Shown piece by piece: positions 3,101 through 49,116 of a stretch of DNA of 58,447 nt (its first letter is position 1; the number at the start of each line of letters is the position of its first letter). A program made the translations under genes and the position numbers. Origin of the DNA: a virus (lineage: Duplodnaviria > Caudoviricetes); the IMG/VR virus record IMGVR_UViG_3300042934_000463, positions 1-58,447 of that record. One strand, 5' to 3'. The notes beneath the pieces were generated by a model. That model did no database searches, had not been told where the DNA came from, and saw only the letters and a program-made list of their open reading frames with translations.

Positions 3101-4696
3101 TGCATCTATAGTGGTTCCATCATCAAAGGTTGTAACTCCTGAAAGAGTTTCTGCCACATATATACTATTTAGGTTTATTATCTGTATATGGGGATTAATT
3201 ATGGTAGCAGATGTAGCTGAACCATTATCATCATACATTTCTATATAACCATCTCCATAAGAGTTAATTACTGCCCTTATTTTAAAATTACTATAGGAGG
3301 TATTAGCTAATTGAATGATATTTGCCTTTTGTGAGTGAGAGGTGGTTATTAAAAAAGTAGCACTATATACTACACTACCCCTGGTACCTGAAACATGCAA
3401 TATAAATGAATGTCCCAATATATTATTTGGGGATACCATACTTACTATTCTAGACCAAGTAGCACCTCTAACATCTCCAACAAAGCTAATAGATTTAGCA
3501 TGATTATTATGGGGTGAGCCTGCATCTATATGAGCTTTTGCCTCAGTAAGAGTTGTTGGGGGATTATTATACCAGTTAGCTCCACCTACAATTTTTTTTA
3601 GCATATTCCCTAATTGGCCAAATAAAGCCGTTATACTATCAGCAGCCCCTGAAGTCTGGGGAGTAGCATCGTTTATAGTTCTAACCCCTATCATTCCATC
3701 ACTAACTGCAGCACCCCCTATGGATAGAGTATCTCCTGACTTAACTAATCCTCCTCCAGCAGTTATTTGACCTGCTCCTGAGGTTTGAATCCAGGCTAGG
3801 GATGTAGTTCCTAGGGTTATAGTTCCATCAGTAGTCATTAAAAAGGTATCATCTGCAAAATTTGTACCTTCTCTTACTGCTACCTCAGCAGATAGAATCT
3901 TTTCAGCAGTATCACAATCTGTAGATCTTGTCCATGCTCCTGAAGCAACTACGTAAATACCATTTTGAGATCCTGTAGTTTGATTCTTTACTAATACTCT
4001 ATCACCAATAGCTAAGGCTACACCATCTATGGTTTGGGTCCCACTTAAAGTTATATTTGCAGTAGTAGCAGCTCTAACTGAATCTTTTCTATTAATTTTT
4101 TGTATAGCTAGGTCTATATAGGTCTTAATAGCTGCTATAAGGGCTTCCAACTGAGTTACTGAACCAAAACCTGTATTGGAAGGAACTCCTATCTTACTAG
4201 CTCCTGAAGACCCTGAGGTAGTAGCTTGTAAAGAAGCACCTGTAAAGTATCTATTATCATGGTCAGTGCTACCCGCAGCAATATGTGCTGATATAACATT
4301 GGAATCAGCAACCTTTAACCATGCTCCCCAAGTTGAGGCTGTATATCTAGAATACCACATAGTTTGTGTGTCAATTTGAATGAATAGTAAACTGATTATA
4401 GTAGCTTGATTTGATGAGTCTTTAGCAGCAGTTGCCATAATTATGGCATTACCTGTTGCAGGGGCATTAGCTAAATTTTTACCATAATAAAATCCACTTT
4501 TTGTGATTGATCTGCAATCGGTAATTAAAGTAGCATCTGTTCCTAAACCAAAACCTACTGGAGCTTTACTATCTTGTAACCCTTTTAGAGCAGTGTCTAT
4601 TTTTGAATTATCCAGGTTAAAATCACTCATTTTAGGTTTATCAGTTAATAGGTATTGATTAAGATTGTAGTTGGGTGTTTTATTAGTACTAGGCAT
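47..4696 (-). CDS. Long tail fibre / receptor-binding protein with about 8 pyocin-knob-like repeats and a gp53-like C-terminal domain
   Basis: Follows baseplate genes; N-term MPSTNKTPNYNL typical of tail fibre attachment; repeated DLN..xxGxY..N.P...G.L.V...Q...R..W..W units; C-term NGYQKLPNGLIIQWG...FPITFP...WLAIGY. Confidence 0.9.
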   Translation of the reverse strand: MPSTNKTPNYNLNQYLLTDKPKMSDFNLDNSKIDTALKGLQDSKAPVGFGLGTDATLITDCRSITKSGFYYGKNLANAPATGNAIIMATAAKDSSNQATIISLLFIQIDTQTMWYSRYTASTWGAWLKVADSNVISAHIAAGSTDHDNRYFTGASLQATTSGSSGASKIGVPSNTGFGSVTQLEALIAAIKTYIDLAIQKINRKDSVRAATTANITLSGTQTIDGVALAIGDRVLVKNQTTGSQNGIYVVASGAWTRSTDCDTAEKILSAEVAVREGTNFADDTFLMTTDGTITLGTTSLAWIQTSGAGQITAGGGLVKSGDTLSIGGAAVSDGMIGVRTINDATPQTSGAADSITALFGQLGNMLKKIVGGANWYNNPPTTLTEAKAHIDAGSPHNNHAKSISFVGDVRGATWSRIVSMVSPNNILGHSFILHVSGTRGSVVYSATFLITTSHSQKANIIQLANTSYSNFKIRAVINSYGDGYIEMYDDNGSATSATIINPHIQIINLNSIYVAETLSGVTTFDDGTTIDANKIVGHEITTKLGPTIIADLGGNADTATRWKTPTKIQLAGDALGSVSVNGSEGTATINVDVVDDSHNHIIDNVDGLQTALDGKAPTGYGLGAQGKRLATGYDLNTLVYTNGWFDVNSPINGPTEIGTGWCSILTVISGDSKYVTQLAFDMTNTTGNLMWVRKLTTTVPGSPVWTPWERVLNKNYADNIYAPGNYGLGGTAKQAVTDWNNYKTTGFYRGQALANSPEAKPGYSTGVWWYVMVIQHDATQYCTQIATEYVTGIMYTRTLVNGVWNSWKRSLSQSDIGDMGAANVLNSTDLNTVISTGIYQVTPTCGNLPDEAFGNSYMVVMGSAVNSCVQIATSFDDASGVARTAIRSRGLTGEWTAWRIAGGEMYHLVNTNGTGLSATSKDLNTYTSAGFYTFLQATPTNGPGGGMYGILHVMPEDTSTNIRQIFYPRNGYPTTRVKNSSGWGSWDTIMAKSYTDALYFPKTTDLPLIAGGNSAGVHYRDVANYNNNTSAITGTLKIKLPKSWSNTMLDLVIKGHTHSGIGWGAWELRTGGYNYNTASPTWQGCSAVLNKEAPFTQVRFAHDGTNCCILLGTLSTTWNYPKLLISEVLAAFSNQTGWDLGWEISIITSETGITTTVTLDASLSNQAYALTQSNGAAKDPLTTDLNAIVSPGFYRLQGTSYTNGPTSAIYGTLEVVYGTSTGLAQTIYFDGGDILNRAKSGSTWSSWGNLQRYQITNSDGTGKSYLGTSNFNTMLAPGVYTIDGTCDNNPRQGTSARGILEVKKLNTGRIIQEFTYDQDYIGSNGGCKYIRSYHSGTVTWSSWVESIDTNSNFQSYSLTDKDGLPLYSIPGATDLNNFASTGVYGLSGASFTNAPAVTMYGILEVQRRVIAGAAESTMQRITLTDSGRVYTRTKHANIWTPWRTIINLTDDFVANKSSNGYQKLPNGLIIQWGSTSLTPTTVGGAVSTTVNFPITFPTYCQSIVCTPRTYLPLMVDATVSGSTISNFDLYARRTDNNNPITVNWLAIGY

Positions 4697-4706
4697 TTTA
4701 TTCCTC

Positions 4707-5273
4707 CTATCCGCCTAAAGCATATTCTTCCCATTCTTTCCAATTTAATTCCTTACTATCCCATGTAGCCCATGTATAGTCATAGCTATCAAATATCTCC
4801 CAAGTAATATAAAGAAATATAATTTCATAAATTAAATGGGCGGGTATTCTTTGTTCTATTACCTTTTGGAGAGCTGTTATATTAGGGGGTACCCCTGGTA
4901 AATCTGTAAAGAAAATCATCAATTTACTTTCTAAATACTTAAACTCAGTTCTAACAGATCCTCCCGTATAGGCTCTGGATAAATTGTTAAGTGAGGTGGC
5001 ATTAAATTTTTTCCATGAGGTTAGTACTACTTTGGCAATTCTTGATTTTTCTAATTCTGTAGGTTCATAATTAAAGAGTTTATACAGTTGGAATAATTTA
5101 AAATATTCTTCTCCACCACCATCTAAATAATATCTAATCTCATCTTTTATTAGTTGTTCTAATTCTGAGGTTTTATGTGCTAGGGATTTTATTAATTCAT
5201 GAGACTCTAAAAACTCAGTATATAAAGGGGGCACATAAGTTTTTAGCTGCTCTAAAACTTTATCATAGGACAT
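4707..5273 (-). CDS. Baseplate wedge protein (XkdU/DUF2313-like)
   Basis: Position after baseplate J; IEQRIPAHL motif. Confidence 0.8.
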   Translation of the reverse strand: MSYDKVLEQLKTYVPPLYTEFLESHELIKSLAHKTSELEQLIKDEIRYYLDGGGEEYFKLFQLYKLFNYEPTELEKSRIAKVVLTSWKKFNATSLNNLSRAYTGGSVRTEFKYLESKLMIFFTDLPGVPPNITALQKVIEQRIPAHLIYEIIFLYITWEIFDSYDYTWATWDSKELNWKEWEEYALGG

Positions 5274-24343: not shown

Positions 24344-24790
24344 TTAATACCCCTCTTCCAATTTAGTATACTCTCTGAGTTTTTCTATACTGTGTATTTT
24401 TATAAAATTACTTAAAAATTCTACACCAGATAAATCTCTATAAGGTTCATCATATATAACTTGTTTAATTCCTGCATTTAGAATTAGCTCAGCACATTTT
24501 TTGCATGGGCTATAGGTCACATATAATATACTATTTTCAAGAGCAATCCCTTTTCTTGCTGCAAAGCTTATTGCTGCAGCTTCAGCATGAACAGCTACAC
24601 TACAGGATGGACCAGTACAAGTCTCAGATGTACAATGAGGAACTCCAGCAGGGGCTCCATTATATCCTGTTACTACTATTCTATTATCTACAGTAATTAC
24701 ACACCCTACCTGTTTTCTTAGGCAGGTACTTCTCTTAGCTATTGAATGGGCTATTTCCATATTTAGATCATGTCTCTCAATTCTCTCCAT
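24344..24790 (-). CDS. dCMP deaminase (ComEB-like)
   Basis: RSTC.RKQVG, GYNG.P, HAE and SPCKKC zinc-deaminase motifs. Confidence 0.93.
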   Translation of the reverse strand: MERIERHDLNMEIAHSIAKRSTCLRKQVGCVITVDNRIVVTGYNGAPAGVPHCTSETCTGPSCSVAVHAEAAAISFAARKGIALENSILYVTYSPCKKCAELILNAGIKQVIYDEPYRDLSGVEFLSNFIKIHSIEKLREYTKLEEGY

Positions 24791-40945: not shown

Positions 40946-42910
40946 ATGGGTGATAAGAAGGTCCAATTCCTAAAAGACATATATTCTAAACAGTGTGAAA
41001 ATGGGGACTATATAATCTTATCAGCTAAAGGACTGGATACTCCTTGGAAAGATGTGGCTATCCCTTATAATGATAAGACTATTGATAAAAAGTTAGATGG
41101 GTTTTTTAAACAGTACCCCACTGAAGACTATGATCTCTATTGGTCTCCAATGCCATACGCAGGACCTAAGAGAAGACTAGATAATTCAATAGAAAGTAAA
41201 TTCCTAGTACAGGATATAGATGAGTATGATAATCCTATGTCCATTGAACCCAAACCAAGCTACCTATGGGAATCATCTCCTGGAAAGTATCAGGGAATAT
41301 GGGAGCTTGATAGGTATATACCAGAATCTGAATATACACCCTTAAACAAAGCTTTAGCTGAGTCTATTGGTTGTGATGATTGTTTCGACTATTGTCATGT
41401 ATATAGAATACCTGGAAGTATAAACCATAAGTATAAAAATAACCCAAAGGTTAAATCTCCACAACATACTAACATGATCTATAAACCTAAGAATCTTAAA
41501 AAACTTCTAGGTGTAAATCATAAACAAGAAGAACCCACTGGAGATATAGATTCTAATGATCTAACTGAGAGAGGTATATATGCTAAATATAATATCCCCC
41601 AAAAGGTCAGAGATTTATTAGCTCTAACAGACATTACAGGTATTGACAGAAGTGATACCATATGGTATATTGAAAATAAGCTACATGAATTAAAGATGAC
41701 CCCCAATGAGATTATTTACCTTGTGAAAAATTCATCCTTTAATAAATATAAAGGGAGACATGATGAAGATAAAAGGCTTAGAAATGAGCTGGATAAAATC
41801 ATTAGTGGGAAGATTGAAGGTAAGATACAAAAAATGGAAGAATCCCAACTTAGAGTAGATTCCTACTTTGATGTAATGGGGAATCAAAGATCCTTTCCAG
41901 GATGGCTAATTGAAGGATTCTGGGGAAGAAGATCACATGGGATTGTAGCTGGTCAACCTAAAGTATTTAAGTCTACATTTACTCAGGATCTAATAATATC
42001 AGTAGCCTCAGGAAGACCCTTTCTAGGGAAATATAAGGTATTAGAACCTGGACCTGTGATATTAGTTCAAAATGAAAATGCTGATTGGATACTTAAGGAT
42101 AGAACTGAAAAATTAATTAATCATAGAGGATTGGTGGGTAAAGCTAAGATAAGGAATAGCCATATATTAAATGTTGATTTTCCACCAGAATTGCCAATAC
42201 ACTTCATTAACCAACAAGGATTTAGTTTTGATAATGACTCTCATAGAAAACAATTAGAAGATATGATTGTAGAAACTAAACCTGTGTTAATAGTATTTGA
42301 CCCATTGTATTTAATGATTAATGGAGACTTAAACAGTGCTTCTGAATTAGGTCCAACACTACAATGGTTATTACATCTAAAGAACACCTATAACACTGGA
42401 GTCATGGTAATACACCATTATAATAAAGGTGGAAATGCCACTCAAGTAAGAGGTGGTCAAAAGATGTTAGGTTCAGCTATCCTACATGGTTGGGTAGAAT
42501 CTGCTTGGTATTTAAAAAGAAGTGATGATGATCTAGAAGAACCTGATGAGGATATAGAGGATTTTGATAAACAATCTGATGTGCCTTCCAAGGTAATCAT
42601 GGATAGAGAGTTCCGTCTTGCAGGAACATTCCCACAAATACAATTAGAAATAGCAATGGGTAAGCATGGAGATCCTTATTATCATGTAGATGTAACAATG
42701 CCAGATAAGGAAGATAGGCCTAGTAATAAAGGTAGCCAAATCGAAAAGGATATTATAAACCTGATTGAATCACAAAGTGTTCCAGTAACTAAAGAAGATT
42801 TGAGGGAAAGGCTGGGATTAAAACATAAACAAATAAATGTGGCCTTGGATAAATTAATCCAGGATAAAAAAATCTCACCTACTAAAAATGGTTTTACTCT
42901 TTACAAATAA
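40946..42910 (+). CDS. Primase-helicase (RepB-like AEP primase plus RecA-like AAA_25 helicase)
   Basis: DID, ESSPGKYQ.IW and RIPGS.N.KY primase motifs; GQPKVFKS Walker A, VFDP Walker B, IHH..K. Confidence 0.88.
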   Translation: MGDKKVQFLKDIYSKQCENGDYIILSAKGLDTPWKDVAIPYNDKTIDKKLDGFFKQYPTEDYDLYWSPMPYAGPKRRLDNSIESKFLVQDIDEYDNPMSIEPKPSYLWESSPGKYQGIWELDRYIPESEYTPLNKALAESIGCDDCFDYCHVYRIPGSINHKYKNNPKVKSPQHTNMIYKPKNLKKLLGVNHKQEEPTGDIDSNDLTERGIYAKYNIPQKVRDLLALTDITGIDRSDTIWYIENKLHELKMTPNEIIYLVKNSSFNKYKGRHDEDKRLRNELDKIISGKIEGKIQKMEESQLRVDSYFDVMGNQRSFPGWLIEGFWGRRSHGIVAGQPKVFKSTFTQDLIISVASGRPFLGKYKVLEPGPVILVQNENADWILKDRTEKLINHRGLVGKAKIRNSHILNVDFPPELPIHFINQQGFSFDNDSHRKQLEDMIVETKPVLIVFDPLYLMINGDLNSASELGPTLQWLLHLKNTYNTGVMVIHHYNKGGNATQVRGGQKMLGSAILHGWVESAWYLKRSDDDLEEPDEDIEDFDKQSDVPSKVIMDREFRLAGTFPQIQLEIAMGKHGDPYYHVDVTMPDKEDRPSNKGSQIEKDIINLIESQSVPVTKEDLRERLGLKHKQINVALDKLIQDKKISPTKNGFTLYK

Positions 42911-42960: not shown

Positions 42961-43422
42961 ATGAATATATATTTAAACTTCGAGGAGGGAATGGTTAGGA
43001 TAAAAAAATATGTAGTGGTTATAGTTATGAGAAGTAATAAAAAGGAAAAGATCCTTTATAACTCTGGACTACAATATTTTTATACTGAAGCTTCCAAAAA
43101 TCTTTATGTTAGAAGTATAAAAGAGAAATTTAAAGGTTCCAATTTAGAGGTTCATGATGTAGATATATATCAAGCCCATGCCCCTGAATCAGATACAAAG
43201 GTTAGAGGAAAATATTGGTGTCCCTATTGCCAAGGATATCACAAATATAAGAAGGATGGCTACTCAGGTTATTTAAGATGTGAAATTTGTGGTATGTCAG
43301 ATGGTGACTTCTATGTTAAAACTTATAATCATTTATGGTCAAAGACTGGAATTAAAACAACTGTATCAACAGTTCCAGTTGAAAATAAATCCACTAAAAA
43401 GAGGAGAGTGAAGAGAAAATGA
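42961..43422 (+). CDS. Zinc-finger hypothetical protein
   Basis: WCPYC...RCEICG; the start may be 42991. Confidence 0.65.
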   Translation: MNIYLNFEEGMVRIKKYVVVIVMRSNKKEKILYNSGLQYFYTEASKNLYVRSIKEKFKGSNLEVHDVDIYQAHAPESDTKVRGKYWCPYCQGYHKYKKDGYSGYLRCEICGMSDGDFYVKTYNHLWSKTGIKTTVSTVPVENKSTKKRRVKRK

Positions 43423-43946
43423 TAATTTGCACTGGAATGGATAATACGGGTAAAACTACACTATGTAATAAGTTAAAGATTCATTATGGATTAGAACTTA
43501 AAAAATCCCCTGGGCCTATATCTTACCCTGAACAAAAAGAATGGATGATGGAACAAGCTTTGAATAGTTTAGTATCTAATGAAGAAGTTATATATGATAG
43601 GTTCTCATTTATGGAAGAAATGGTATATGGTACTGTGTTAAGAAATGGCACATTATTTGATTTTAATTCTGAGGTAGTTAAAGCTGTTGCAGCTACTAGG
43701 CCTCAAATTATATATACTAGACCCCCAAGAAAAAAGATCTTTAACTTTGGTGATAGAGAACAGATGAAAGGTGTTGTTGACCAAAAGGAAGAGTTACTCA
43801 ATGCCTATGATGAATTAATATTTAATATGATATCAAAGGGATGGTTGGTCCATGTATATGATTATACAGAACCTGCAGCTCTTGAAAAATTAATGGAAAA
43901 GATAAACATGACCTTATTACTAAAAACAAAATTGGGAGGAATTTAA
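43419..43946 (+). CDS. Deoxynucleoside monophosphate kinase (thymidylate kinase-like)
   Basis: G.DNTGKTT P-loop; YDRF...E.VYG. Confidence 0.85.
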   Translation: MIICTGMDNTGKTTLCNKLKIHYGLELKKSPGPISYPEQKEWMMEQALNSLVSNEEVIYDRFSFMEEMVYGTVLRNGTLFDFNSEVVKAVAATRPQIIYTRPPRKKIFNFGDREQMKGVVDQKEELLNAYDELIFNMISKGWLVHVYDYTEPAALEKLMEKINMTLLLKTKLGGI

Positions 43947-43947
43947 T

Positions 43948-44601
43948 ATGAATATTACACATGCAACTGAGGAACAAATAATAGGGGATAAATTACAAGC
44001 CATATTTAAAAGACAAAGTGAACTAATGGAGAAGTACCATGACATTGAAGCTAGATCTGGACTATTACAGACACCCTTCGTACCTGTGAATATTAATGAC
44101 AAAAGGGGTCAAGCTAGAATTAAGGATTTTGCATGGAGGTTGACTGAAGAATTAGGAGAAGCTCTGGATGCCCTATCACATGAAGAGCATTTTCAGGAAG
44201 AACTTATTGATGGATTGCATTTTCTAACAGAGTTGACAATACTAGCTGGGAAGGATTATAATAGTATTATACCTAACACTATAGATGTAGAAAATATAGA
44301 AGGAGACTATCTAGATAAACTTCATGCCATAGCAACAATAAATTATATAAGTACCCATCTAGCTGATAATATAATGATCTTCATAAGAGAACTTGGCATG
44401 ATGTGTAATTGCCTCAAAAATAAACCTTGGAAACAATCTCAAATGTTAACTGACATGGAAGCTTTTAATACTAGGTTATATAATACATGGGTAGCTTATA
44501 TAGGAATACTAGAAGAATCTGGATTATTATCAGAAGATATAGCTAATATATATTTGAAAAAATCTCAGGTAAACCAATTCAGACAAAGAAGTAATTATTA
44601 A
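43948..44601 (+). CDS. All-alpha dCTP/dUTP pyrophosphatase (dimeric dUTPase / T4 gp56-like)
   Basis: EELGE, EELIDGLHF, KPWK and YLKK.QVNQFRQ..NY. Confidence 0.82.
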   Translation: MNITHATEEQIIGDKLQAIFKRQSELMEKYHDIEARSGLLQTPFVPVNINDKRGQARIKDFAWRLTEELGEALDALSHEEHFQEELIDGLHFLTELTILAGKDYNSIIPNTIDVENIEGDYLDKLHAIATINYISTHLADNIMIFIRELGMMCNCLKNKPWKQSQMLTDMEAFNTRLYNTWVAYIGILEESGLLSEDIANIYLKKSQVNQFRQRSNY

Positions 44602-44612
44602 GAGGTGATGTA

Positions 44613-45359
44613 ATGCTAATAAGGGAATACCAAAACTTTGATGAGCTATTCCTAAAACTGAATCAAGAAATTATATTGAATCCAGAGGAATGTATGGACT
44701 ATACTCAAAATATCCAAGGATTCATGGAAGACCTAATCATTACTTGTCATGGACATGGCTGTACCTTAGACTTGGGTGATTTTGGTTATAAGGTTGGTAA
44801 ATGGGGACATTTATTAAGATCCTATATTGACTACCCACAACTTCTTGAATTTAGGGAAAAGCTTCAAACAATAAGTGGTATGTCATACACATATTACTTC
44901 AATAGGAAAAAGGCCACTAATGGCTCATGCCTCATAGCTGTGGTTATGACTAGACCCAAAAGAAAAGGCCCATGGAAACACATGAAGATCATGTATAGAG
45001 TATGTGAATTACAAAAGAAGTTTGCAGCAGATTTGGTTTTAATAAACAGATTCATTGAAGAATTACCCCAAGAATGTTGTGAGATTGATGAAATTACCTT
45101 CCATATGTCTCAAGCTTATTTATCAGGTATGTTTATAAATGGCTACTTTGAATATTTCAAGGTTGATAGAAAAATTATTGAAAAGAGTAAACATCCATGG
45201 CATAGAACTCTAACTTCAAACTTTAATAGGTTTTTTAAATCTCCTGACCAAATACACTCATACAAAGCTCTTCAAAAGATGCAAAAATTACATTTTGGTA
45301 TGGAAGACTTTGAATCAATACAACTGGAGAAGTTATCAATAGATGAGTACTTTAAATAA
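44613..45359 (+). CDS. Divergent thymidylate-synthase-fold protein (paralog 1)
   Basis: SCL (catalytic Cys position) and MYRVCELQKKFAAD aligning with RSxD-x7-N/D; context. Confidence 0.55.
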   Translation: MLIREYQNFDELFLKLNQEIILNPEECMDYTQNIQGFMEDLIITCHGHGCTLDLGDFGYKVGKWGHLLRSYIDYPQLLEFREKLQTISGMSYTYYFNRKKATNGSCLIAVVMTRPKRKGPWKHMKIMYRVCELQKKFAADLVLINRFIEELPQECCEIDEITFHMSQAYLSGMFINGYFEYFKVDRKIIEKSKHPWHRTLTSNFNRFFKSPDQIHSYKALQKMQKLHFGMEDFESIQLEKLSIDEYFK

Positions 45360-45612
45360 TCATATAACTATCTTTGAAGTCTCACCTTGTGGGATAGGAA
45401 ATAAAAACTTAGTTGTAAGAGTGATATGTAGTGAAGCTAAGGACTGGAGTGAAAAACAAATAAGAGATAATTATAAAAGGATTAAAAAACTCATGAAGAA
45501 AAAGAATCATGATTTTAAAGAACTTGATGTATTTATCTGGTATGAAGACCCTACAAAAAATAATTGGCCTGGAGCTAATATCATAATAAATAATAAAGGA
45601 GAGAGGCTGTAA
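45343..45612 (+). CDS. Hypothetical protein inside the modification cluster
   Basis: Overlapping ORF between the two TS-fold genes. Confidence 0.55.
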   Translation: MSTLNNHITIFEVSPCGIGNKNLVVRVICSEAKDWSEKQIRDNYKRIKKLMKKKNHDFKELDVFIWYEDPTKNNWPGANIIINNKGERL

Positions 45613-45613
45613 A

Positions 45614-46378
45614 ATGAGAATATATATTGATGTAAATGAAGCTTTTGAAGAAGTTAAAAGAGACTTAATGGAAATGGGTATTGAGGTTAAACCCAAATCA
45701 ATGCAAGATAAGGACATTGAAGGAAACACTGACTATTATACAAAGGAACTACAAAATTATTCATATAGTATATTAGCTGTTAAACCAGAAGATGTTCCTA
45801 GAGTAACACAACCTTGGGCCGATGCTGAATTTGAGGAAAGAGTAATGGATCCAATAGGTCTTAGGAATTACTATGATGATGAAGAACTACTATCTAAGTT
45901 TGGTATTAATGTAGAAAAGTCTGATGAGAAATACACAATTAATCCGGGTAAGGCATATAAGCTAAGAGATGAAGTATGGAATGAGTTTTTACATGATGGG
46001 GAATTTGGTTATACCTATAATGAAAGAATTAATCATTTTAACCAACTAAACCAAATCATCAATAGGATTAAAAAAGATCCAGGCTCAAGACAACTATGGT
46101 TATCTCTTTGGGATCCATCTATAGATCCAGCTCATATTGGGGGTAAGGTAAGAGTACCATGCTCATTAGGATATAATTTCCAAGTAAGAGAGGGTAAATT
46201 AAACATCCACTACATTATGAGAAGTTGTGATTTTGCTACTCACTTCCCTAATGATGTTTACCTATCAATGAAACTATTACAATATATAGCTGAACAAACA
46301 GGCTACCCTGTAGGCTCATTTACACATACCATATTCTCACTCCATGTATATAATAAAGATGTTGAGGGGGTATTCTAA
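45614..46378 (+). CDS. Thymidylate-synthase-family enzyme, predicted dCMP (hydroxy)methylase
   Basis: YTYNERI, SRQ, VPCS, MRSCDFATHFPND and SLHVY; Asp at the position equal to T4 gp42 Asp179 / E. coli ThyA Asn177. Confidence 0.82.
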   Translation: MRIYIDVNEAFEEVKRDLMEMGIEVKPKSMQDKDIEGNTDYYTKELQNYSYSILAVKPEDVPRVTQPWADAEFEERVMDPIGLRNYYDDEELLSKFGINVEKSDEKYTINPGKAYKLRDEVWNEFLHDGEFGYTYNERINHFNQLNQIINRIKKDPGSRQLWLSLWDPSIDPAHIGGKVRVPCSLGYNFQVREGKLNIHYIMRSCDFATHFPNDVYLSMKLLQYIAEQTGYPVGSFTHTIFSLHVYNKDVEGVF

Positions 46379-46614
46379 TGAATCATTGTAAAGATGAGGA
46401 TAACAAAAGAACAGAAAAGGTTAGGAACATTGTATGGGGTGATAGTGTTAAAGATGATAAGGTAGCTGTATATATTACCAACTTAAATGGATTAGTTAAG
46501 ACTACTGGATTAAATGTAAAACCTGGAATAGGTTTATATGAAGAAGGTGTATTAATAGCTACTATTGAATATGACCAGAATAAAGGTGAATACTACGCTA
46601 TGCCACCAATTTAA
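46378..46614 (+). CDS. Hypothetical protein
   Basis: TAATG coupling with the upstream TS-fold gene. Confidence 0.6.
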   Translation: MNHCKDEDNKRTEKVRNIVWGDSVKDDKVAVYITNLNGLVKTTGLNVKPGIGLYEEGVLIATIEYDQNKGEYYAMPPI

Positions 46615-46662
46615 AATTTTGAGGAGAGTAACATCTCCTCTCTACCATTAGGAGGTAACTAT

Positions 46663-49116
46663 ATGTCATGCAAAAATTGTGGATTACACATACATTCAGC
46701 CCCCACTTGTATACAAGGTTGTGGTAGTAAAAAAGCTGATATAATGATTATAAATAGTTTAGCTGGAGATTTAGATGAATCTGAAGAAAAAGCTATAATG
46801 GATGATGTATTAAAAAAACATTTACAAGATATAGGTATTGATCTTAAAAGGGTATATTATACTAATGCTATTAAGTGTAGAACACCCAAAGGAACTAAGG
46901 TTAAGATAACTGAGGTTAAGAGATGTAAGAAATATTTGGATGATGAGATAAAAAAGGTTAATCCCAAATTTGTATTAGCTATAGGAGCTCAGGCTACAAA
47001 AGCTTTAACTGATGAGGGTATCACATCAATAAATGGAGTTATTAGAGAAAAGGATGGTTATAAATATATGGCTACTTTTGCTCCTGGTATTATATATAGA
47101 GATCCAGGAAAAGCTCCTTATGTAATACAGGCCTTTAATAATTTCAAAGATATGGTAAAGGGTATTGAAACCAAATTACCTGAATTAAATATAAAATTTG
47201 TAAAAAATAAGAGAGAGATTATTAAGGCCTTACATTATTTAGAAAAGCATAATTATAGACAAATAGCTTATGATATTGAGACTAGAGGTCTAGATAGATA
47301 TAAACAAAATATAACCCTATTTGGTTTTGGTAATGATAAAGTACAATTCATATTGCCTTTGGAAGTAAAATACTCACCCCTGAGGGGTAAGAAGATAGCA
47401 CAGATCAATCTGATGAGGTTCCTCATTAAGAGGTTGAATAATATCACAAATGAAAGGATAGGACAAAATGGTAAGTTTGATGATTTATTCATAGAAGAAG
47501 TTTTTGGTGTAAGGCCTGATATTACCTTTGATACTATGTTAGCTTCCCATGCCCTTGATGAAAATACCCCAAATGGATTAAAGGAGAATGCTGTAAGATT
47601 TTGTGGGGCTAAGGATTGGGATATTAATAAAAAGCTAAAAACTGGTAATGTTCAAACCAAGTTGGATTATGAGCAATACACTAGTTATTTGGGATATGAT
47701 GTATTCTACACCTTTAAACTCAAAAAGAAATTCAGAAAACTATTAAGACAAGATATGGCCATATATAAAATATTCAAGCATATCTACATGCCTGCTAGCA
47801 AGGCCTATGAGGACATTCAAAAGAAGGGAGCATATGTTAGACAGAAACAATTTAAAGAGGCTGAAAAGTACCTTAAGGATAAATTGGCTGATATTGAGAA
47901 AAGACTTAAAAAATATACAAAGGGTAAGGAAATTAATTGGAACTCACCAAAACAAGTGGGGGATTTTTTGTATAAGGATCTTAAGTTACCAATATTAGAA
48001 AAGACTGAATCAGGAGCTCCAGCTACAGGTGAATCCATATTATTAAGATTAAGAGATAAACACCCTGCAGTTGAAGTATTATTAGAATATAGAGGGGTCC
48101 ATATACAGATATCCCATTTTATTACTGGGTGGCAAGAGAGAATGGTTGGCAAGAGATTACACCCTAACTTTAAACTTCATGGAACAGTAACAGGAAGAAC
48201 CTCATCCAATGACCCAAATCTTCAACAGGTTCCTAGAGATAAAATTATAAGGAGCTTAATAGGAGCCCCTGAAGGAAGAGTATTTGTGGAAGCTGATTTA
48301 TCACAAGCAGAATTAAGAATAGCCGCTATGATGAGTGGAGACCATACAATGAAGCTTACTTATCAAACTGGAGGAGATATTCATAATACAACTTACAATG
48401 CCATAGCTGAGGATAGAATTGAGGATGAAAAGGATCCAGCTGTTAAAAAAGAAAAAAGGAAAAAGGCCAAGGCAGTTAATTTTGGTTTCCTATATGGTAT
48501 GGGATGGAAAAAATTCCAGGAATATGCAAGAGATACTTATGGTCTTAAACTTACTGATAAGGAAGCTAAGGAATATCGTAAACGTTTCTTTATGATGTAT
48601 ACAGACTTACCAGCATGGCATGATAGACAAAGAAAGATAGTTCATGCATTGAAACAGGTTAGATCACCAATAGGAAGATTAAGAAGATTACCTGATATTG
48701 ATTCTTCTGAAAAGTCAAAAGTTGCCGAAGCCGAAAGACAATCAATTAATTCACCAGTTCAAGGGTTTGGCTCAGATATTACTCTATTAGGATTATGTGA
48801 GTTAATGGGTTATGCAAAATATTATAATCCAGAATGGGTTGTAGACAAATCAAAATTTGATTGTATTGGAACAGTTCATGACTCTATACTTTGTGAAGTT
48901 GATGAGGATTATGTAGAAGAGTTTGTATGGAAGATCAAGAATATAGTACAATATTCTAAGGTTCTTACTAAGGTCTTTAAATTTAACCCAACTGTTCCAA
49001 TAATAATGGATGTTTCAGTGGGTAAGACCTGGGGTAATTGTAAAGAGCTGGACTTTAATGGAGACTGGAAAAAAGAAGTTAAAAATATATTAAAAGATAT
49101 AAAACAATCTGCATAA
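46663..49116 (+). CDS. polA: Family A DNA polymerase with an N-terminal family-4 UDG-like domain and 3'-5' exonuclease
   Basis: CKNC..TNAIKCR..C; YDIET, NGKFD and GYD exonuclease motifs; DLSQAELR (A), RKKAKAVNFGFLYG (B), VHDS (C). Confidence 0.95.
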   Translation: MSCKNCGLHIHSAPTCIQGCGSKKADIMIINSLAGDLDESEEKAIMDDVLKKHLQDIGIDLKRVYYTNAIKCRTPKGTKVKITEVKRCKKYLDDEIKKVNPKFVLAIGAQATKALTDEGITSINGVIREKDGYKYMATFAPGIIYRDPGKAPYVIQAFNNFKDMVKGIETKLPELNIKFVKNKREIIKALHYLEKHNYRQIAYDIETRGLDRYKQNITLFGFGNDKVQFILPLEVKYSPLRGKKIAQINLMRFLIKRLNNITNERIGQNGKFDDLFIEEVFGVRPDITFDTMLASHALDENTPNGLKENAVRFCGAKDWDINKKLKTGNVQTKLDYEQYTSYLGYDVFYTFKLKKKFRKLLRQDMAIYKIFKHIYMPASKAYEDIQKKGAYVRQKQFKEAEKYLKDKLADIEKRLKKYTKGKEINWNSPKQVGDFLYKDLKLPILEKTESGAPATGESILLRLRDKHPAVEVLLEYRGVHIQISHFITGWQERMVGKRLHPNFKLHGTVTGRTSSNDPNLQQVPRDKIIRSLIGAPEGRVFVEADLSQAELRIAAMMSGDHTMKLTYQTGGDIHNTTYNAIAEDRIEDEKDPAVKKEKRKKAKAVNFGFLYGMGWKKFQEYARDTYGLKLTDKEAKEYRKRFFMMYTDLPAWHDRQRKIVHALKQVRSPIGRLRRLPDIDSSEKSKVAEAERQSINSPVQGFGSDITLLGLCELMGYAKYYNPEWVVDKSKFDCIGTVHDSILCEVDEDYVEEFVWKIKNIVQYSKVLTKVFKFNPTVPIIMDVSVGKTWGNCKELDFNGDWKKEVKNILKDIKQSA

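What the first reader, a model, noticed from the sequence alone, without database searches (positions are those of the whole stretch)
44613..46378. Two tandem TS-fold paralogs, one degenerate: possible heterodimeric base-modifying enzyme
Seen: 44613..45359 has SCL and YRVCELQKKFAAD, which align with PCS and MRSCDFATHFPND of 45614..46378. It keeps Cys, Arg and the specificity Asp but changes Ser to Val and Asp to Glu and lacks the HxY motif (SQAYL). Known: TS-fold enzymes are obligate dimers whose active sites use residues from both subunits. Inference: the pair forms an asymmetric heterodimer, or paralog 1 performs a second step giving a new C derivative. The 89-aa and 78-aa ORFs coupled to them may be accessory. 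This is the best candidate here for an undescribed system.
Basis: inference. Interest (0 to 1): 0.85.

Follow-up and report, generated by a model that had tools for sequence, protein, structure and literature searches.

The report
Second, unannotated thymidylate-synthase-fold enzyme
Next to an ordinary-looking thymidylate-synthase-like gene this phage carries a second, very divergent gene of the same fold from an unnamed but widespread family, and the two probably work together to build a modified cytosine for the phage's DNA.

Summary
ORF A (44613-45359) has no Pfam match and no significant sequence similarity to ORF B. Its AlphaFold model (pLDDT 89.7) is nevertheless clearly thymidylate-synthase (TS) fold: VIA-align Z 14.1 to phage HY126 dCMP hydroxylase, 13 to MilA, about 10 to TS.

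ORF A is not degenerate.
- Its family (296 cluster representatives; PHROG 34294, "unknown function") keeps Cys106, Arg129, Glu132 and Asp140 almost universally.
- dN/dS against phage CPAS-15 is 0.08, lower than ORF B's 0.20.

The context is a conserved cassette just before PolA: dNMP kinase, NTP pyrophosphatase, ORF A, ORF B.
- All 13 ORF A-seeded metagenomic loci hold ORF B, and six isolate phages show the row.
- 44 of 55 ORF B-seeded loci hold ORF A; seven hold two copies.
- Two complete records have ORF B alone.

My reading: this is a pre-replicative cytosine-modification pathway with two catalytic TS-fold enzymes, and ORF A depends on ORF B. The heterodimer idea is not excluded but not supported. 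The 89-aa and 78-aa ORFs are orphans, not conserved accessories. ORF A's chemistry and the resulting base are unknown.

The parts
43419..43946 (+). dNMP/thymidylate-kinase-like P-loop protein (175 aa), first gene of the conserved cassette
   Evidence: It matches phrog_761 'thymidylate kinase' at E 2.7e-13. Pfam gives only sub-threshold P-loop hits. It is found upstream of the pyrophosphatase in all 11 loci and in most loci.
43948..44601 (+). All-alpha NTP pyrophosphohydrolase (217 aa; dUTPase_2 family); inferred dCTPase/dUTPase feeding monophosphates to the TS-fold enzymes
   Evidence: It matches PF08761 dUTPase_2 at E 9.9e-11 (above cut-off) and phrog_12184 'nucleotide pyrophosphohydrolase' at E 5e-46. 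It sits directly upstream of ORF A in the related loci. Its substrate was not tested.
44613..45359 (+). ORF A, 248 aa: divergent TS-fold protein of an unannotated family. Residues 1-183 form the TS-like core; residues 184-248 are an extra helical C-terminal part. Candidate catalytic residues are Cys106, Arg129, Glu132, Asp140, Tyr59/Lys63 and Tyr169.
   Evidence: - It has no Pfam or NCBIfam family. It matches phrog_34294 'unknown function' at E 4e-147.
- The AF2 model has pLDDT 89.7.
- Foldseek and VIA-align hit TS-family structures: Z 14.1 to 9iqu, 13.0 to MilA, about 10 to TS.
- Family conservation is shown.
- dN/dS is 0.078 against CPAS-15.
- A good Shine-Dalgarno sequence (AGAGGTGA) lies 6 nt upstream of the ATG.
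45343..45612 (+). 89-aa orphan ORF inserted between ORF A and ORF B; it overlaps the end of ORF A by 17 nt
   Evidence: It has no Pfam or PHROG family. phmmer finds no hit in any of the 66 loci then held, and tblastn finds none in 50,697 phage records. Nearest-A to B gaps are tallied (25 of 44 are 15 nt or less). The spacing of its Shine-Dalgarno sequence is rather long.
45614..46378 (+). ORF B, 254 aa: short TS homologue with Asp at the substrate-specificity position (Asp214 = E. coli N177). Asp206 (= D169) and Cys183 (= C146) are kept. Arg180 stands at position 143 and Ser184 at position 147. The classical C-terminal segment is missing.
   Evidence: - It matches PF00303 at E 3e-23, over profile positions 78-218 only.
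- Its best PDB sequence hits are 9iqu/9iqc at E 4e-15, followed by TS entries.
- The AF2 model has pLDDT 81.8.
- VIA-align gives Z 20.7 to MilA and 9iqc, and about 18.8 to TS. The model aligns to E. coli TS residues 1..217 only.
- The signature residues are invariant in 32 relatives and nearly so in 50+ locus copies.
46378..46614 (+). 78-aa orphan ORF; its start overlaps the stop codon of ORF B
   Evidence: It has no Pfam, PHROG or NCBIfam hit. No homologue is found in the loci or in the phage records. A GAGGGGG Shine-Dalgarno sequence lies upstream.
46663..49116 (+). A-family DNA polymerase (817 aa) that follows the cassette; shown as context, since it would have to accept the modified dNTP
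   Evidence: phmmer finds PolA next to the cassette in many loci. It is annotated DNA polymerase I or A in CPAS-15, Serbin, P744, PMBT14, Polewnik and MD02.
24344..24790 (-). dCMP/cytidine-deaminase-family gene (148 aa) elsewhere in the same complete phage genome. It is a likely further member of the pathway; in proteobacterial relatives it sits directly after the TS homologue.
   Evidence: PF00383 matches at 24452-24775 (-) with E 2.1e-24, above cut-off. The ORF is listed. A deaminase lies adjacent to the TS homologue in Serbin, P744, PMBT14 and MD02.

Best explanation
ORF A is a real, catalytically competent and extremely diverged thymidylate-synthase-fold enzyme. It belongs to an unnamed, widespread phage family and is not a decayed copy. 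It forms part of a conserved pre-replicative nucleotide cassette placed before the phage DNA polymerase: dNMP kinase, NTP pyrophosphatase, ORF A, ORF B. A dCMP-deaminase-family gene lies elsewhere in the genome.

Proposed working:
1. The pyrophosphatase turns dCTP into dCMP (inferred).
2. ORF B is a short TS homologue with Asp at the N177 position. It adds a one-carbon group at C5 of dCMP (inferred from residues; whether the product is methyl or hydroxymethyl is open).
3. ORF A uses Cys106 to attack C6 of a cytosine-type nucleotide, which is read by Asp140 and held by Arg129. It carries out a second C5/C6-dependent step, most likely on ORF B's product (inferred).
4. The kinase returns the product to the dNTP pool for the phage polymerase (inferred).

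Shown: the fold, the residue conservation, purifying selection, the cassette, and its asymmetric co-occurrence. Not shown: substrate, cofactor, product, oligomeric state.
For: Fold:
- The AF2 model has pLDDT 89.7.
- Foldseek's top hits are 9iqu, 9iqc, T4 dCMP hydroxymethylase, MilA and TS.
- VIA-align gives Z 14.1, 13.0 and about 10.
- The A2 family profile hits 9iqu at E 1.2e-4.

Active-site retention:
- K63, Y71, C106, R129, E132 and D140 are invariant in 57 distant members.
- They are near-universal in 49 distinct locus copies.
- The register against ORF B is C106-C183, R129-R203, E132-D206, D140-D214.

Selection:
- dN/dS against CPAS-15 is 0.078 for A, 0.195 for B, 0.199 for the pyrophosphatase and 0.387 for the kinase.

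Cassette:
- 10 of 10 A-seeded IMG/VR loci plus CPAS-15 have kinase, PPase, A, B in that order.
- 3 of 3 distant A loci have B and the PPase.
- 6 of 6 isolate phages looked at show the row. Their hosts are Clostridium, Serratia, Yersinia, Pseudomonas and Brevundimonas, plus a Desulfofustis phage with no host entry; the kinase is not annotated in MD02.
- 44 of 55 B-seeded loci have an A member within 5 kb. That includes all 35 whose B is at least 45% identical.

Asymmetry:
- B occurs without A in 8 of 10 records searched whole, two of them 100% complete.
- A was never seen without B.
- Extra A copies occur in 7 loci, as expected of a diversifying tailoring enzyme.

Cytosine reading:
- Asp at the N177 position marks dCMP-type enzymes (paper PMC13326640 sections 24 and 28; PMC8670742 passages).
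- A deaminase together with a D177-type TS homologue marks modified-cytosine contigs: 104/149 against 17/277 (preprint 10.1101/2024.12.05.627091, passages).
- This genome has such a deaminase.
Against: - There is no biochemical datum for any member of either family.
- By secondary-structure register, ORF A has 'SGM' where ORF B has 'SRQ'. It also has no conserved basic residue where TS (recalled) has its N-terminal phosphate-binding Arg. Canonical 5'-monophosphate binding may therefore be lost, and the substrate may not be a dNMP at all.
- Glu replaces the otherwise Asp/Asn residue at position 169.
- No Pfam TS model detects any of the 133 family members scanned.
- The order 'B first, A second' rests only on the co-occurrence asymmetry. 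Many of the B-only records are incomplete.
- ORF B fits none of the published product signatures, because Arg stands at position 143. Even the first step is therefore a guess.
- The strict adjacency is equally expected for a heterodimer.
- dS is near saturation (1.1-1.9), so the ratios are rough.
Confidence: 0.5

Rival explanations
1. One reading: ORF A and ORF B form an obligate asymmetric heterodimer through the TS-type sheet interface. It would have one composite active site, or ORF A would act as a specificity or regulatory subunit of ORF B.
For: - TS-fold enzymes are dimers whose sites use residues of both chains (established knowledge, recalled).
- A and B are neighbours in nearly all loci. 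The gap is 15 nt or less in 25 of 44 loci.
- A was never found without B.
- By register, ORF A lacks the Arg that a TS subunit lends to its partner, while ORF B keeps one (R159). B could therefore complete A's site but not the reverse (inference).
Against: - ORF A keeps its own Cys/Arg/Glu/Asp set throughout the family. It is under tight constraint.
- 7 of 44 loci have two different A copies for one B.
- A and B lie about 5 kb apart, with recombination genes between them, in L069. In G001 they lie more than 5 kb apart.
- B-type enzymes stand alone in two complete records.
- Tight operon spacing is also seen between the pyrophosphatase and A, so it is not specific to the A-B pair.
Confidence: 0.2
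2. ORF A is an independent enzyme working in parallel with ORF B rather than after it. It would act on another nucleotide or perform another reaction. Examples are a Cys-adduct-assisted deamination or exchange on dCMP or 5-methyl-dCMP, or a second C5 substituent giving a mixed population of bases.
For: - It has a complete catalytic-looking residue set of its own.
- Its phosphate site is remodelled and it has a unique helical C-terminal part, residues 184-248.
- Extra paralogues occur in some loci.
Against: - A was never seen without B in the 13 A-seeded metagenomic loci and 6 isolates. This is unexpected for a self-sufficient enzyme.
- A Zn-deaminase is already present in this genome and in the proteobacterial cassettes. 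A deaminase role would therefore be redundant.
Confidence: 0.17
3. ORF A is a non-catalytic TS-fold protein. It could be a scaffold of a dNTP-synthesis complex, or a decoy that poisons the host thymidylate synthase by forming mixed dimers.
For: - It is missing the partner-donated Arg and the N-terminal Arg (register inference).
- No TS sequence model recognises it.
Against: Near-universal conservation of exactly the nucleophile, the Arg, the carboxylate and the specificity Asp across a family with about 15-20% mean identity is hard to explain without catalysis or at least ligand binding.
Confidence: 0.06
4. ORF A is a glycosyltransferase, as its CPAS-15 orthologue is annotated ('colanic acid biosynthesis glycosyltransferase WcaC').
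For: The GenBank product name in MN417334. A weak Pfam Glyco_transf_61 hit at E 0.039, 14.6 bits against a cut-off of 27, covering residues 202-248 only.
Against: The hit is far below the cut-off and confined to the C-terminal tail. The confident model is TS fold over residues 1-183, and all structural neighbours listed (but one designed hydrolase) are TS-family proteins.
Confidence: 0.01

Closest known systems
Phage flavin-dependent 5-hydroxy-dCMP synthases (HY126 AfhB, PDB 9iqu/9iqc; RB69 gp48, DLP3 gp80)
   Same: - It is the best structural match of ORF A (Z 14.1) and the only PDB sequence-profile hit (E 1.2e-4, N-terminal 49 residues).
- It is the best PDB sequence hit of ORF B (E 4e-15).
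- It has the same short TS core without the classical C-terminal segment, with Cys, Arg166 and Asp177 equivalents.
- It is a phage pre-replicative dCMP enzyme working with a dNMP kinase (PMC13326640, sections 24 and 28 read).
   Different: - The diagnostic D169N is absent. ORF A has Glu132 and ORF B has Asp206.
- Position 143 is Asn (A) or Arg (B), not Glu.
- That reaction needs O2. The nearest isolates of this phage infect the anaerobe Clostridium perfringens (anaerobiosis is established knowledge).
- No arabinose or glycosyl-transfer genes were found among the 20 replication-side proteins scanned.
T4 gp42 dCMP hydroxymethylase and MilA CMP hydroxymethylase
   Same: - Both are TS fold and cytosine-specific through Asp at the N177 position.
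- Structural matches: for ORF A, MilA Z 13.0 and T4 dCH Foldseek E 1e-5 to 1e-4; for ORF B, MilA Z 20.7.
- The module logic is that of T4: dCTPase, then dCMP enzyme, then dNMP kinase.
   Different: - The acidic residue at position 143 that goes with hydroxymethyl products (PMC13326640, section 24) is absent from both ORFs.
- ORF A is not detected by PF00303.
- T4 has one such enzyme (recalled); here there are two TS-fold genes per cassette.
Xp12-type dCMP methyltransferase (5-methyl-dCMP synthase) with its 5mC-selective deaminase
   Same: - It combines a D177 TS homologue, a dCMP-deaminase-family gene and an NTP pyrophosphatase, the combination tied to modified cytosine (preprint 10.1101/2024.12.05.627091, passages).
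- This genome has all three.
   Different: - The Xp12 enzyme is a full-length canonical TS, with a classical C-terminal part and a neighbouring DHFR. It scores only 50 bits against the ORF B family profile.
- No ORF A family member was found in the first 50,000 of the 63,783 bases of Xp12.
- ORF A therefore has no counterpart in the known 5mC pathway.
PHROG 34294 / GenBank products 'pyrimidine hmase synthase'
   Same: ORF A matches phrog_34294 end to end at E 4e-147, and all 57 distant members scanned match it too. Two GenBank records (Yersinia phage vB_YenM_P744, and Caudoviricetes sp. MW202455) name the orthologue 'pyrimidine hmase synthase'.
   Different: The PHROG carries no function. The GenBank name is an unpublished annotation: 'hmase' and 'thymidylate' have 0 occurrences in the main text of the P744 paper (PMC11269248, term search). 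No experiment lies behind it.

Membership tests
Thymidylate synthase / dCMP hydroxymethylase fold superfamily (ORF A) | The TS alpha/beta fold | tested here: met
   The AF2 model has pLDDT 89.7. VIA-align gives Z 14.1 (rmsd 3.1 A, 176 aligned) to 9iqu, 13.0 to MilA and about 10 to about 45 TS entries. Foldseek gives probability 1.00.
Thymidylate synthase / dCMP hydroxymethylase fold superfamily (ORF A) | Match to Pfam PF00303 above the gathering score | tested here: not met
   ORF A gives no PF00303 hit even at E<=1. None of 76 plus 57 family members hits it at E<=0.01.
Thymidylate synthase / dCMP hydroxymethylase fold superfamily (ORF A) | Catalytic Cys (E. coli C146) and Arg166 in register | tested here: met
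   hhalign pairs C106 with C183 and R129 with R203. Both are invariant or near-universal in the family. The secondary-structure register is the same in both models. No residue-level structural superposition was available.
Thymidylate synthase / dCMP hydroxymethylase fold superfamily (ORF A) | Asp at position 169 | tested here: not met
   ORF A has Glu132. It is invariant in the distant set and present in most locus copies. This is a conservative change, but not the family residue.
Thymidylate synthase / dCMP hydroxymethylase fold superfamily (ORF A) | Arg pair lent to the partner subunit's phosphate site, and the N-terminal phosphate-binding Arg (features recalled, not from a call) | tested here: inconclusive
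   By strand and helix register, ORF A has S88-G-M where ORF B has S158-R-Q. No conserved basic residue occurs in residues 24-36 of ORF A. The register is inferred, not superposed.
Thymidylate synthase / dCMP hydroxymethylase fold superfamily (ORF A) | Obligate dimer; methylene-tetrahydrofolate as co-substrate | not testable with these tools
   No usable complex result was obtained and there are no coordinates for docking.
dCMP-specific TS homologues (ORF A and ORF B) | Asp in place of Asn177 | tested here: met
   For ORF B, Asp214 aligns with the Asp of 9iqu in the HMMER alignment, and it is invariant. For ORF A, Asp140 aligns with Asp214 and is invariant. The meaning of the residue comes from PMC13326640 and PMC8670742.
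5-hydroxy-dCMP synthases (AfhB / RB69 gp48 type) | Asn at position 169 (D169N), the diagnostic proposed in PMC13326640 section 28 | tested here: not met
   ORF B has Asp206 where 9iqu has Asn (alignment). ORF A has Glu132.
5-hydroxymethyl-dCMP synthases (T4 gp42 type) | Acidic residue at position 143 (L143D/E; PMC13326640 section 24) | tested here: not met
   ORF B has Arg180 (it aligns with the Glu of 9iqu) and it is invariant. ORF A has Asn103, three residues before Cys106.
Canonical dCMP methyltransferase (Xp12 type) | Full-length TS with the classical C-terminal segment | tested here: not met
   The ORF B model aligns to E. coli TS residues 1..217 only and ends 8 residues after Tyr246. The Xp12 enzyme runs about 70 residues past its own H-x-Y motif, whereas ORF B ends 8 residues after Tyr246.
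Glycosyltransferase (GT61 / WcaC, as annotated in CPAS-15) | Family HMM match above cut-off; GT fold | tested here: not met
   PF04577 scores 14.6 bits against a cut-off of 27, over residues 202-248 only. The model's structural neighbours are TS-family.

The most novel reading that the evidence does not exclude
The ORF A family is a new catalytic branch of the TS fold. It takes the C5-substituted dCMP made by the neighbouring ORF B-type enzyme, or its exocyclic-methylene intermediate re-formed by Cys106 attack at C6, and installs a different C5 group. Phages of Clostridium, gut anaerobes, Pseudomonas, Serratia, Yersinia and Brevundimonas would then carry a cytosine derivative not yet described in DNA. 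The extra ORF A copies in some genomes would diversify that base further.
Probability: 0.3. Interest if true: 0.85.

Novelty: new variant of a known kind. Interest (0 to 1): 0.62.

Why it matters
Phage DNA base modifications are a source of new enzymology, sequencing and biotechnology tools, and anti-restriction strategies. The known pyrimidine pathways start with a single TS homologue whose product is predicted from three or four residues.

This cassette breaks that scheme in three ways:
- It has two TS-fold genes.
- One of them is invisible to Pfam and unannotated, although its family has about 300 clusters at 50% identity.
- Neither gene fits the published residue signatures for methyl, hydroxymethyl or hydroxy products.

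Residue-based predictions of "5mC" or "5hmC" phages from metagenomes may therefore be wrong for this large group, and a new base or a new TS-fold reaction may be hidden there. The question is directly testable: cultured phages with the cassette exist, and the published in-vivo assay (TS homologue + dNMP kinase in E. coli, then LC-MS of plasmid DNA) fits it exactly. It also corrects a misannotation ("colanic acid glycosyltransferase") in GenBank.

Tried and rejected
Complex prediction
- ORF B (alignment A3) was run with ORF A (alignment A2) as the partner. The tool's verdict was 'no answer': scores 0.00, 0.33, 0.00, and the controls were not run. I draw nothing from it either way.

Searches that could not be run as planned
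I used the closer alignment A1 instead.
I therefore could not examine the contexts of most of the 296 family representatives. I used the search for related loci with two distant members instead.

Fusions and extra domains
- The search for longer, fused forms of ORF A found none at E<=1e-3 among 452 candidates, which is weak evidence.
- A Pfam scan of ten longer family members (299-483 aa) found no domain.

Further modification enzymes
- PHROG scans of 20 plus-strand proteins between 32979 and 55638 found exonuclease, Sak4, SSB, helicase and ligase-like proteins, but no glycosyl-, amino-acid- or carbamoyl-transferase. The minus-strand genes and the small ORFs were not scanned.
- A Pfam scan of the genes lying between A and B in L069 found Mre11/Rad50-like proteins, a PDDEXK nuclease and a sigma factor, not modification enzymes.

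Other leads
- The ESM Atlas returned only 'hypothetical protein' clusters, one with PF00303 on 10% of its members.
- The glycosyltransferase annotation is rejected (see rival explanations).

Literature
- No paper in the held library describes the ORF A family, a two-TS-fold cassette, or the DNA bases of the Clostridium, Serratia, Pseudomonas, Yersinia or Brevundimonas phages named here.
- Read in sections: PMC13326640 (sections 24 and 28, plus passages).
- Read as passages only: PMC8670742, PMC13697223, PMC6509536, PMC7653180, PMC11269248 and preprint 10.1101/2024.12.05.627091.
- The He et al. paper on HY126 AfhB was not found in the library; I know it only through PMC13326640 and the PDB titles.
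Fig. 6A and the supplements of PMC13326640, and Supplementary Figs 1E and 2A of the deaminase preprint, list tested TS homologues. They could show whether an ORF B-type enzyme has already been assayed.

Not done
- Sequencing-run look-ups.
- Restriction-site avoidance statistics.
- The last 13.8 kb of Xp12.


Full report
THE WINDOW. The window is a whole phage genome of 58,447 bp. It has direct terminal repeats and is rated 100% complete. Its nearest cultured relatives, at about 75% nucleotide identity over parts of this region, are 50-53 kb Clostridium perfringens phages: CPAS-15, CPD4, CP3, A2-H1, P21 and Clo-PEP-1.

The finding lies in a plus-strand replication block:
- primase/helicase (40946-42910)
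- a zinc-ribbon protein
- a dNMP-kinase-like protein (43419-43946)
- a dUTPase_2-family NTP pyrophosphatase (43948-44601)
- ORF A (44613-45359)
- an 89-aa ORF
- ORF B (45614-46378)
- a 78-aa ORF
- an A-family DNA polymerase (46663-49116)

THE OBSERVATION. Sequence alone does not prove relatedness. BLASTP of A against B gives E 0.83. hhalign of a 76-member profile of A against a 32-member profile of B gives only 1.2% probability.

THE FOLD OF ORF A. The fold decides the matter.
- An AlphaFold2 model of ORF A from 12 close homologues has mean pLDDT 89.7 and pTM 0.88.
- Foldseek finds 89 PDB chains at E<=1e-3. All those listed are TS-family entries except one designed hydrolase. The list is headed by phage HY126 dCMP hydroxylase AfhB (9iqu, E 5e-8), then T4 dCMP hydroxymethylase, MilA and thymidylate synthases.
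- VIA-align gives Z 14.1 (rmsd 3.1 A, 176 residues, model residues 1-183) to 9iqu, 13.0 to MilA and about 10 to TS.
- The broad family profile hits 9iqu at E 1.2e-4 through the N-terminal 49 residues.
- In both models the Cys sits just before a strand, the Arg..Glu/Asp at the end of the next strand, and the Asp early in the next helix.
- Residues 184-248 of ORF A form an additional helical part with its own invariant residues: H194, P195, W196, R206.

ORF A IS NOT DEGENERATE.
- A word-based search found only 12 close relatives. A full HMMER scan of 1.84 billion representatives with their profile found 296 at E<=1e-3, 90 at E<=1e-10 and 38 at E<=1e-30.
- None of the 133 members scanned (76 + 57) matches Pfam PF00303 or any other meaningful family. 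All 57 distant ones match PHROG 34294, 'unknown function'.
- Across the 57 most distant members, whose mean column identity is 15%, K63, Y71, C106, R129, E132 and D140 are invariant.
- Across 49 distinct copies taken from loci, Y59, K63, L67, Y71, C106, R129 and D140 are near-universal, and E132 is present in most.
- Against CPAS-15, ORF A is 81% identical with dN/dS 0.078. ORF B is 73% identical with 0.195, the pyrophosphatase gives 0.199 and the kinase 0.387. dS is close to saturation, so these ratios are rough.
- These are features of an enzyme or ligand-binding protein under strong constraint.

WHAT ORF A HAS LOST. This part is inferred by register, not by superposition.
- Where ORF B has S158-R159-Q160 before the strand that follows the long helix, ORF A has S88-G-M.
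- No conserved basic residue stands in ORF A residues 24-36, where TS is recalled to hold an N-terminal phosphate-binding Arg.
- Of the four phosphate-binding arginines of classical TS (recalled knowledge), ORF A seems to keep only the Arg166 equivalent.
- It has instead an invariant Lys63 and a basic loop, R114-x-x-R117-K118, which is conserved in the closer half of the family.

THE CASSETTE.
- All 10 IMG/VR loci found with ORF A, plus CPAS-15, carry kinase, pyrophosphatase, ORF A, ORF B in that order.
- With ORF B as seed, 55 loci came back; they include the same 10 contigs. An ORF A family member lies within 5 kb in 44 of them. That covers all 35 whose ORF B is at least 45% identical to the window's, and 9 of the 20 more distant ones.
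- The nearest ORF A lies upstream of ORF B in 37 loci and downstream in 7. The gap is 15 nt or less in 25. Seven loci have two ORF A copies.
- Three loci found with distant family members, on 23, 80 and 85 kb contigs, also hold an ORF B-type gene and the pyrophosphatase. In L069 the two genes are 5 kb apart, with Mre11/Rad50-like, PDDEXK and sigma-factor genes between them.
- Six of six isolate genomes inspected show the row: CPAS-15, Serratia phage Serbin, Yersinia phage vB_YenM_P744, Pseudomonas phage PMBT14, Brevundimonas phage Polewnik and Desulfofustis phage MD02. In MD02 the kinase is not annotated. In four of them a dCMP-deaminase-family gene sits between the TS homologue and PolA.
- The window's own genome has such a deaminase at 24344-24790 on the minus strand.
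- Ten of the eleven 'B-only' loci were re-examined by searching their whole records. ORF A turned up elsewhere in one (E 9e-55) and weakly in another (E 4e-10). It was absent from eight, two of which are rated 100% complete.
- The dependence is therefore asymmetric. ORF A was never seen without ORF B, but ORF B-type genes can stand alone.
- In two of the distant loci (L057, L065) ORF B is accompanied by a different, more canonical second TS homologue.

ORF B.
- It matches PF00303 at E 3e-23, but only over profile positions 78-218.
- Its model aligns to E. coli TS residues 1..217 and ends there. Like AfhB, it lacks the classical C-terminal segment.
- Numbering comes from the HMMER alignment to 9iqu and the residue scheme of Lee et al. 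2026 (PMC13326640, sections 24 and 28). On that scheme ORF B has Cys183 = C146, Asp214 = N177D (dCMP type), Asp206 = D169 (so it is not the D169N 5-hydroxy-dCMP type), Arg180 at position 143 (neither the hydrophobic residue tied to methyl nor the acidic residue tied to hydroxymethyl products), and Ser184 at position 147.
- This signature is invariant over 32 relatives and nearly so in 50+ locus copies down to about 35% identity.
- Its product is therefore not predictable from published rules.
- The known 5mC phage Xp12 has a full-length canonical enzyme beside DHFR and a deaminase. It has no ORF A member in the 50,000 of its 63,783 bases that I searched.

HOW IT MOST LIKELY WORKS. All of this is inference.
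- The cassette has the logic of the T4 and Xp12 pathways. A pyrophosphatase removes dCTP and supplies dCMP. A TS-fold enzyme substitutes C5. A dNMP kinase returns the product to the pool. A deaminase-family enzyme can make dTTP from part of it.
- In the deaminase preprint, deaminase + D177-type TS homologue co-localise in 104 of 149 modified-cytosine contigs against 17 of 277 unmodified ones, and 5 of 7 tested TS homologues made 5-methyl-dCMP (passages only).
- ORF A adds a second Cys-dependent pyrimidine enzyme with a cytosine-type Asp.
- ORF A depends on ORF B but not the reverse, and it is duplicated in some genomes. For these reasons I favour a tailoring step on ORF B's product. One example: Cys106 adds at C6, the exocyclic methylene is re-formed, and another nucleophile captures it.
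- O2-dependent hydroxylation of the AfhB kind is unlikely for phages of strict anaerobes, and the D169N signature is absent.

THE HETERODIMER IDEA.
- For it: the strict linkage, and the fact that ORF B keeps one partner-donated Arg while ORF A has none.
- Against it: ORF A's own complete residue set, two ORF A copies per ORF B in seven loci, separation by 5 kb or more in two records, and ORF B-only complete genomes.
- I put it at about 0.2.

THE TWO SMALL ORFs. They have plausible ribosome-binding sites. They have no homologue in the 66 loci then held or in the 50,697 phage records. They are strain-specific insertions, not conserved accessories.

NOVELTY.
- The kind is known: TS-fold enzymes that make modified pyrimidine nucleotides for phage DNA.
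- The ORF A family as such is not in Pfam or NCBIfam. It has no function in PHROGs and is 'hypothetical' in most GenBank records.
- It is misnamed a glycosyltransferase in CPAS-15. It is called 'pyrimidine hmase synthase' in two records, with no mention in the main text of the associated P744 paper.
- My eight literature searches found no description of it, nor of a two-TS-fold cassette.
- I class it as a new variant of a known kind. The chemistry, and possibly a new DNA base, remain open.

Noticed in passing
window 45614-46378 and loci L012-L066: The ORF B family is itself unusual. It is a short TS homologue without the classical C-terminal segment. It has an invariant Arg at the E. coli L143 position and Ser at H147, and it keeps Asp169 and Asp177. 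It fits none of the published residue signatures for methyl, hydroxymethyl or hydroxy products. It is very common: 756 clusters at E<=1e-5, many on about 50 kb contigs.
   Followed up: partly
window 24344-24790 (-): A dCMP/cytidine-deaminase-family gene (PF00383, E 2e-24) sits among minus-strand genes far from the cassette. In the proteobacterial relatives the same kind of gene lies directly between the TS homologue and PolA. It may be a modified-dCTP deaminase of the kind described in the 5mC-deaminase preprint.
   Followed up: partly
L057:3552-4436 and L065:2941-3873: Two distant loci pair the ORF B-type gene with a different, more canonical second TS homologue, rather than with, or beside only a weak match to, an ORF A member. 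'ORF B plus a second TS-fold gene' may therefore be the general rule.
   Followed up: partly
L048:5665-6522, L054:3947-4774, L059:2276-4938, L060:3892-5001: In several loci where ORF B stands without ORF A, the neighbouring gene looks like a DNA methyltransferase. I judged this by eye from printed translations: DPPY-like or cytosine-C5-like motifs. No tool was run on these proteins.
   Followed up: no
L001 (MN417334, CPAS-15) 4243-4992: The CPAS-15 orthologue of ORF A is annotated 'colanic acid biosynthesis glycosyltransferase WcaC'. The fold shows this is a misannotation.
   Followed up: yes
window 46615-46662: A GC-rich inverted repeat (gaggagag...ctcctctc) lies between the 78-aa ORF and the PolA start. 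It looks like a terminator or attenuator hairpin separating the cassette from the polymerase gene.
   Followed up: no
L070 (Serratia phage Serbin) and paper PMC6509536: Serbin is reported as related to the E. coli 9g/CAjan phage group but lacks their queuosine/deazaguanine gene cluster. It carries the kinase, pyrophosphatase, ORF A, TS, deaminase cassette instead. Related phages thus seem to carry one or the other DNA-modification module.
   Followed up: no
L006/L041, L014, L022, L029, L034, L044, L049: These loci hold two diverged ORF A family copies each, in tandem or flanking ORF B. Some copies have Val, Phe, Tyr or Leu in place of Glu132.
   Followed up: partly
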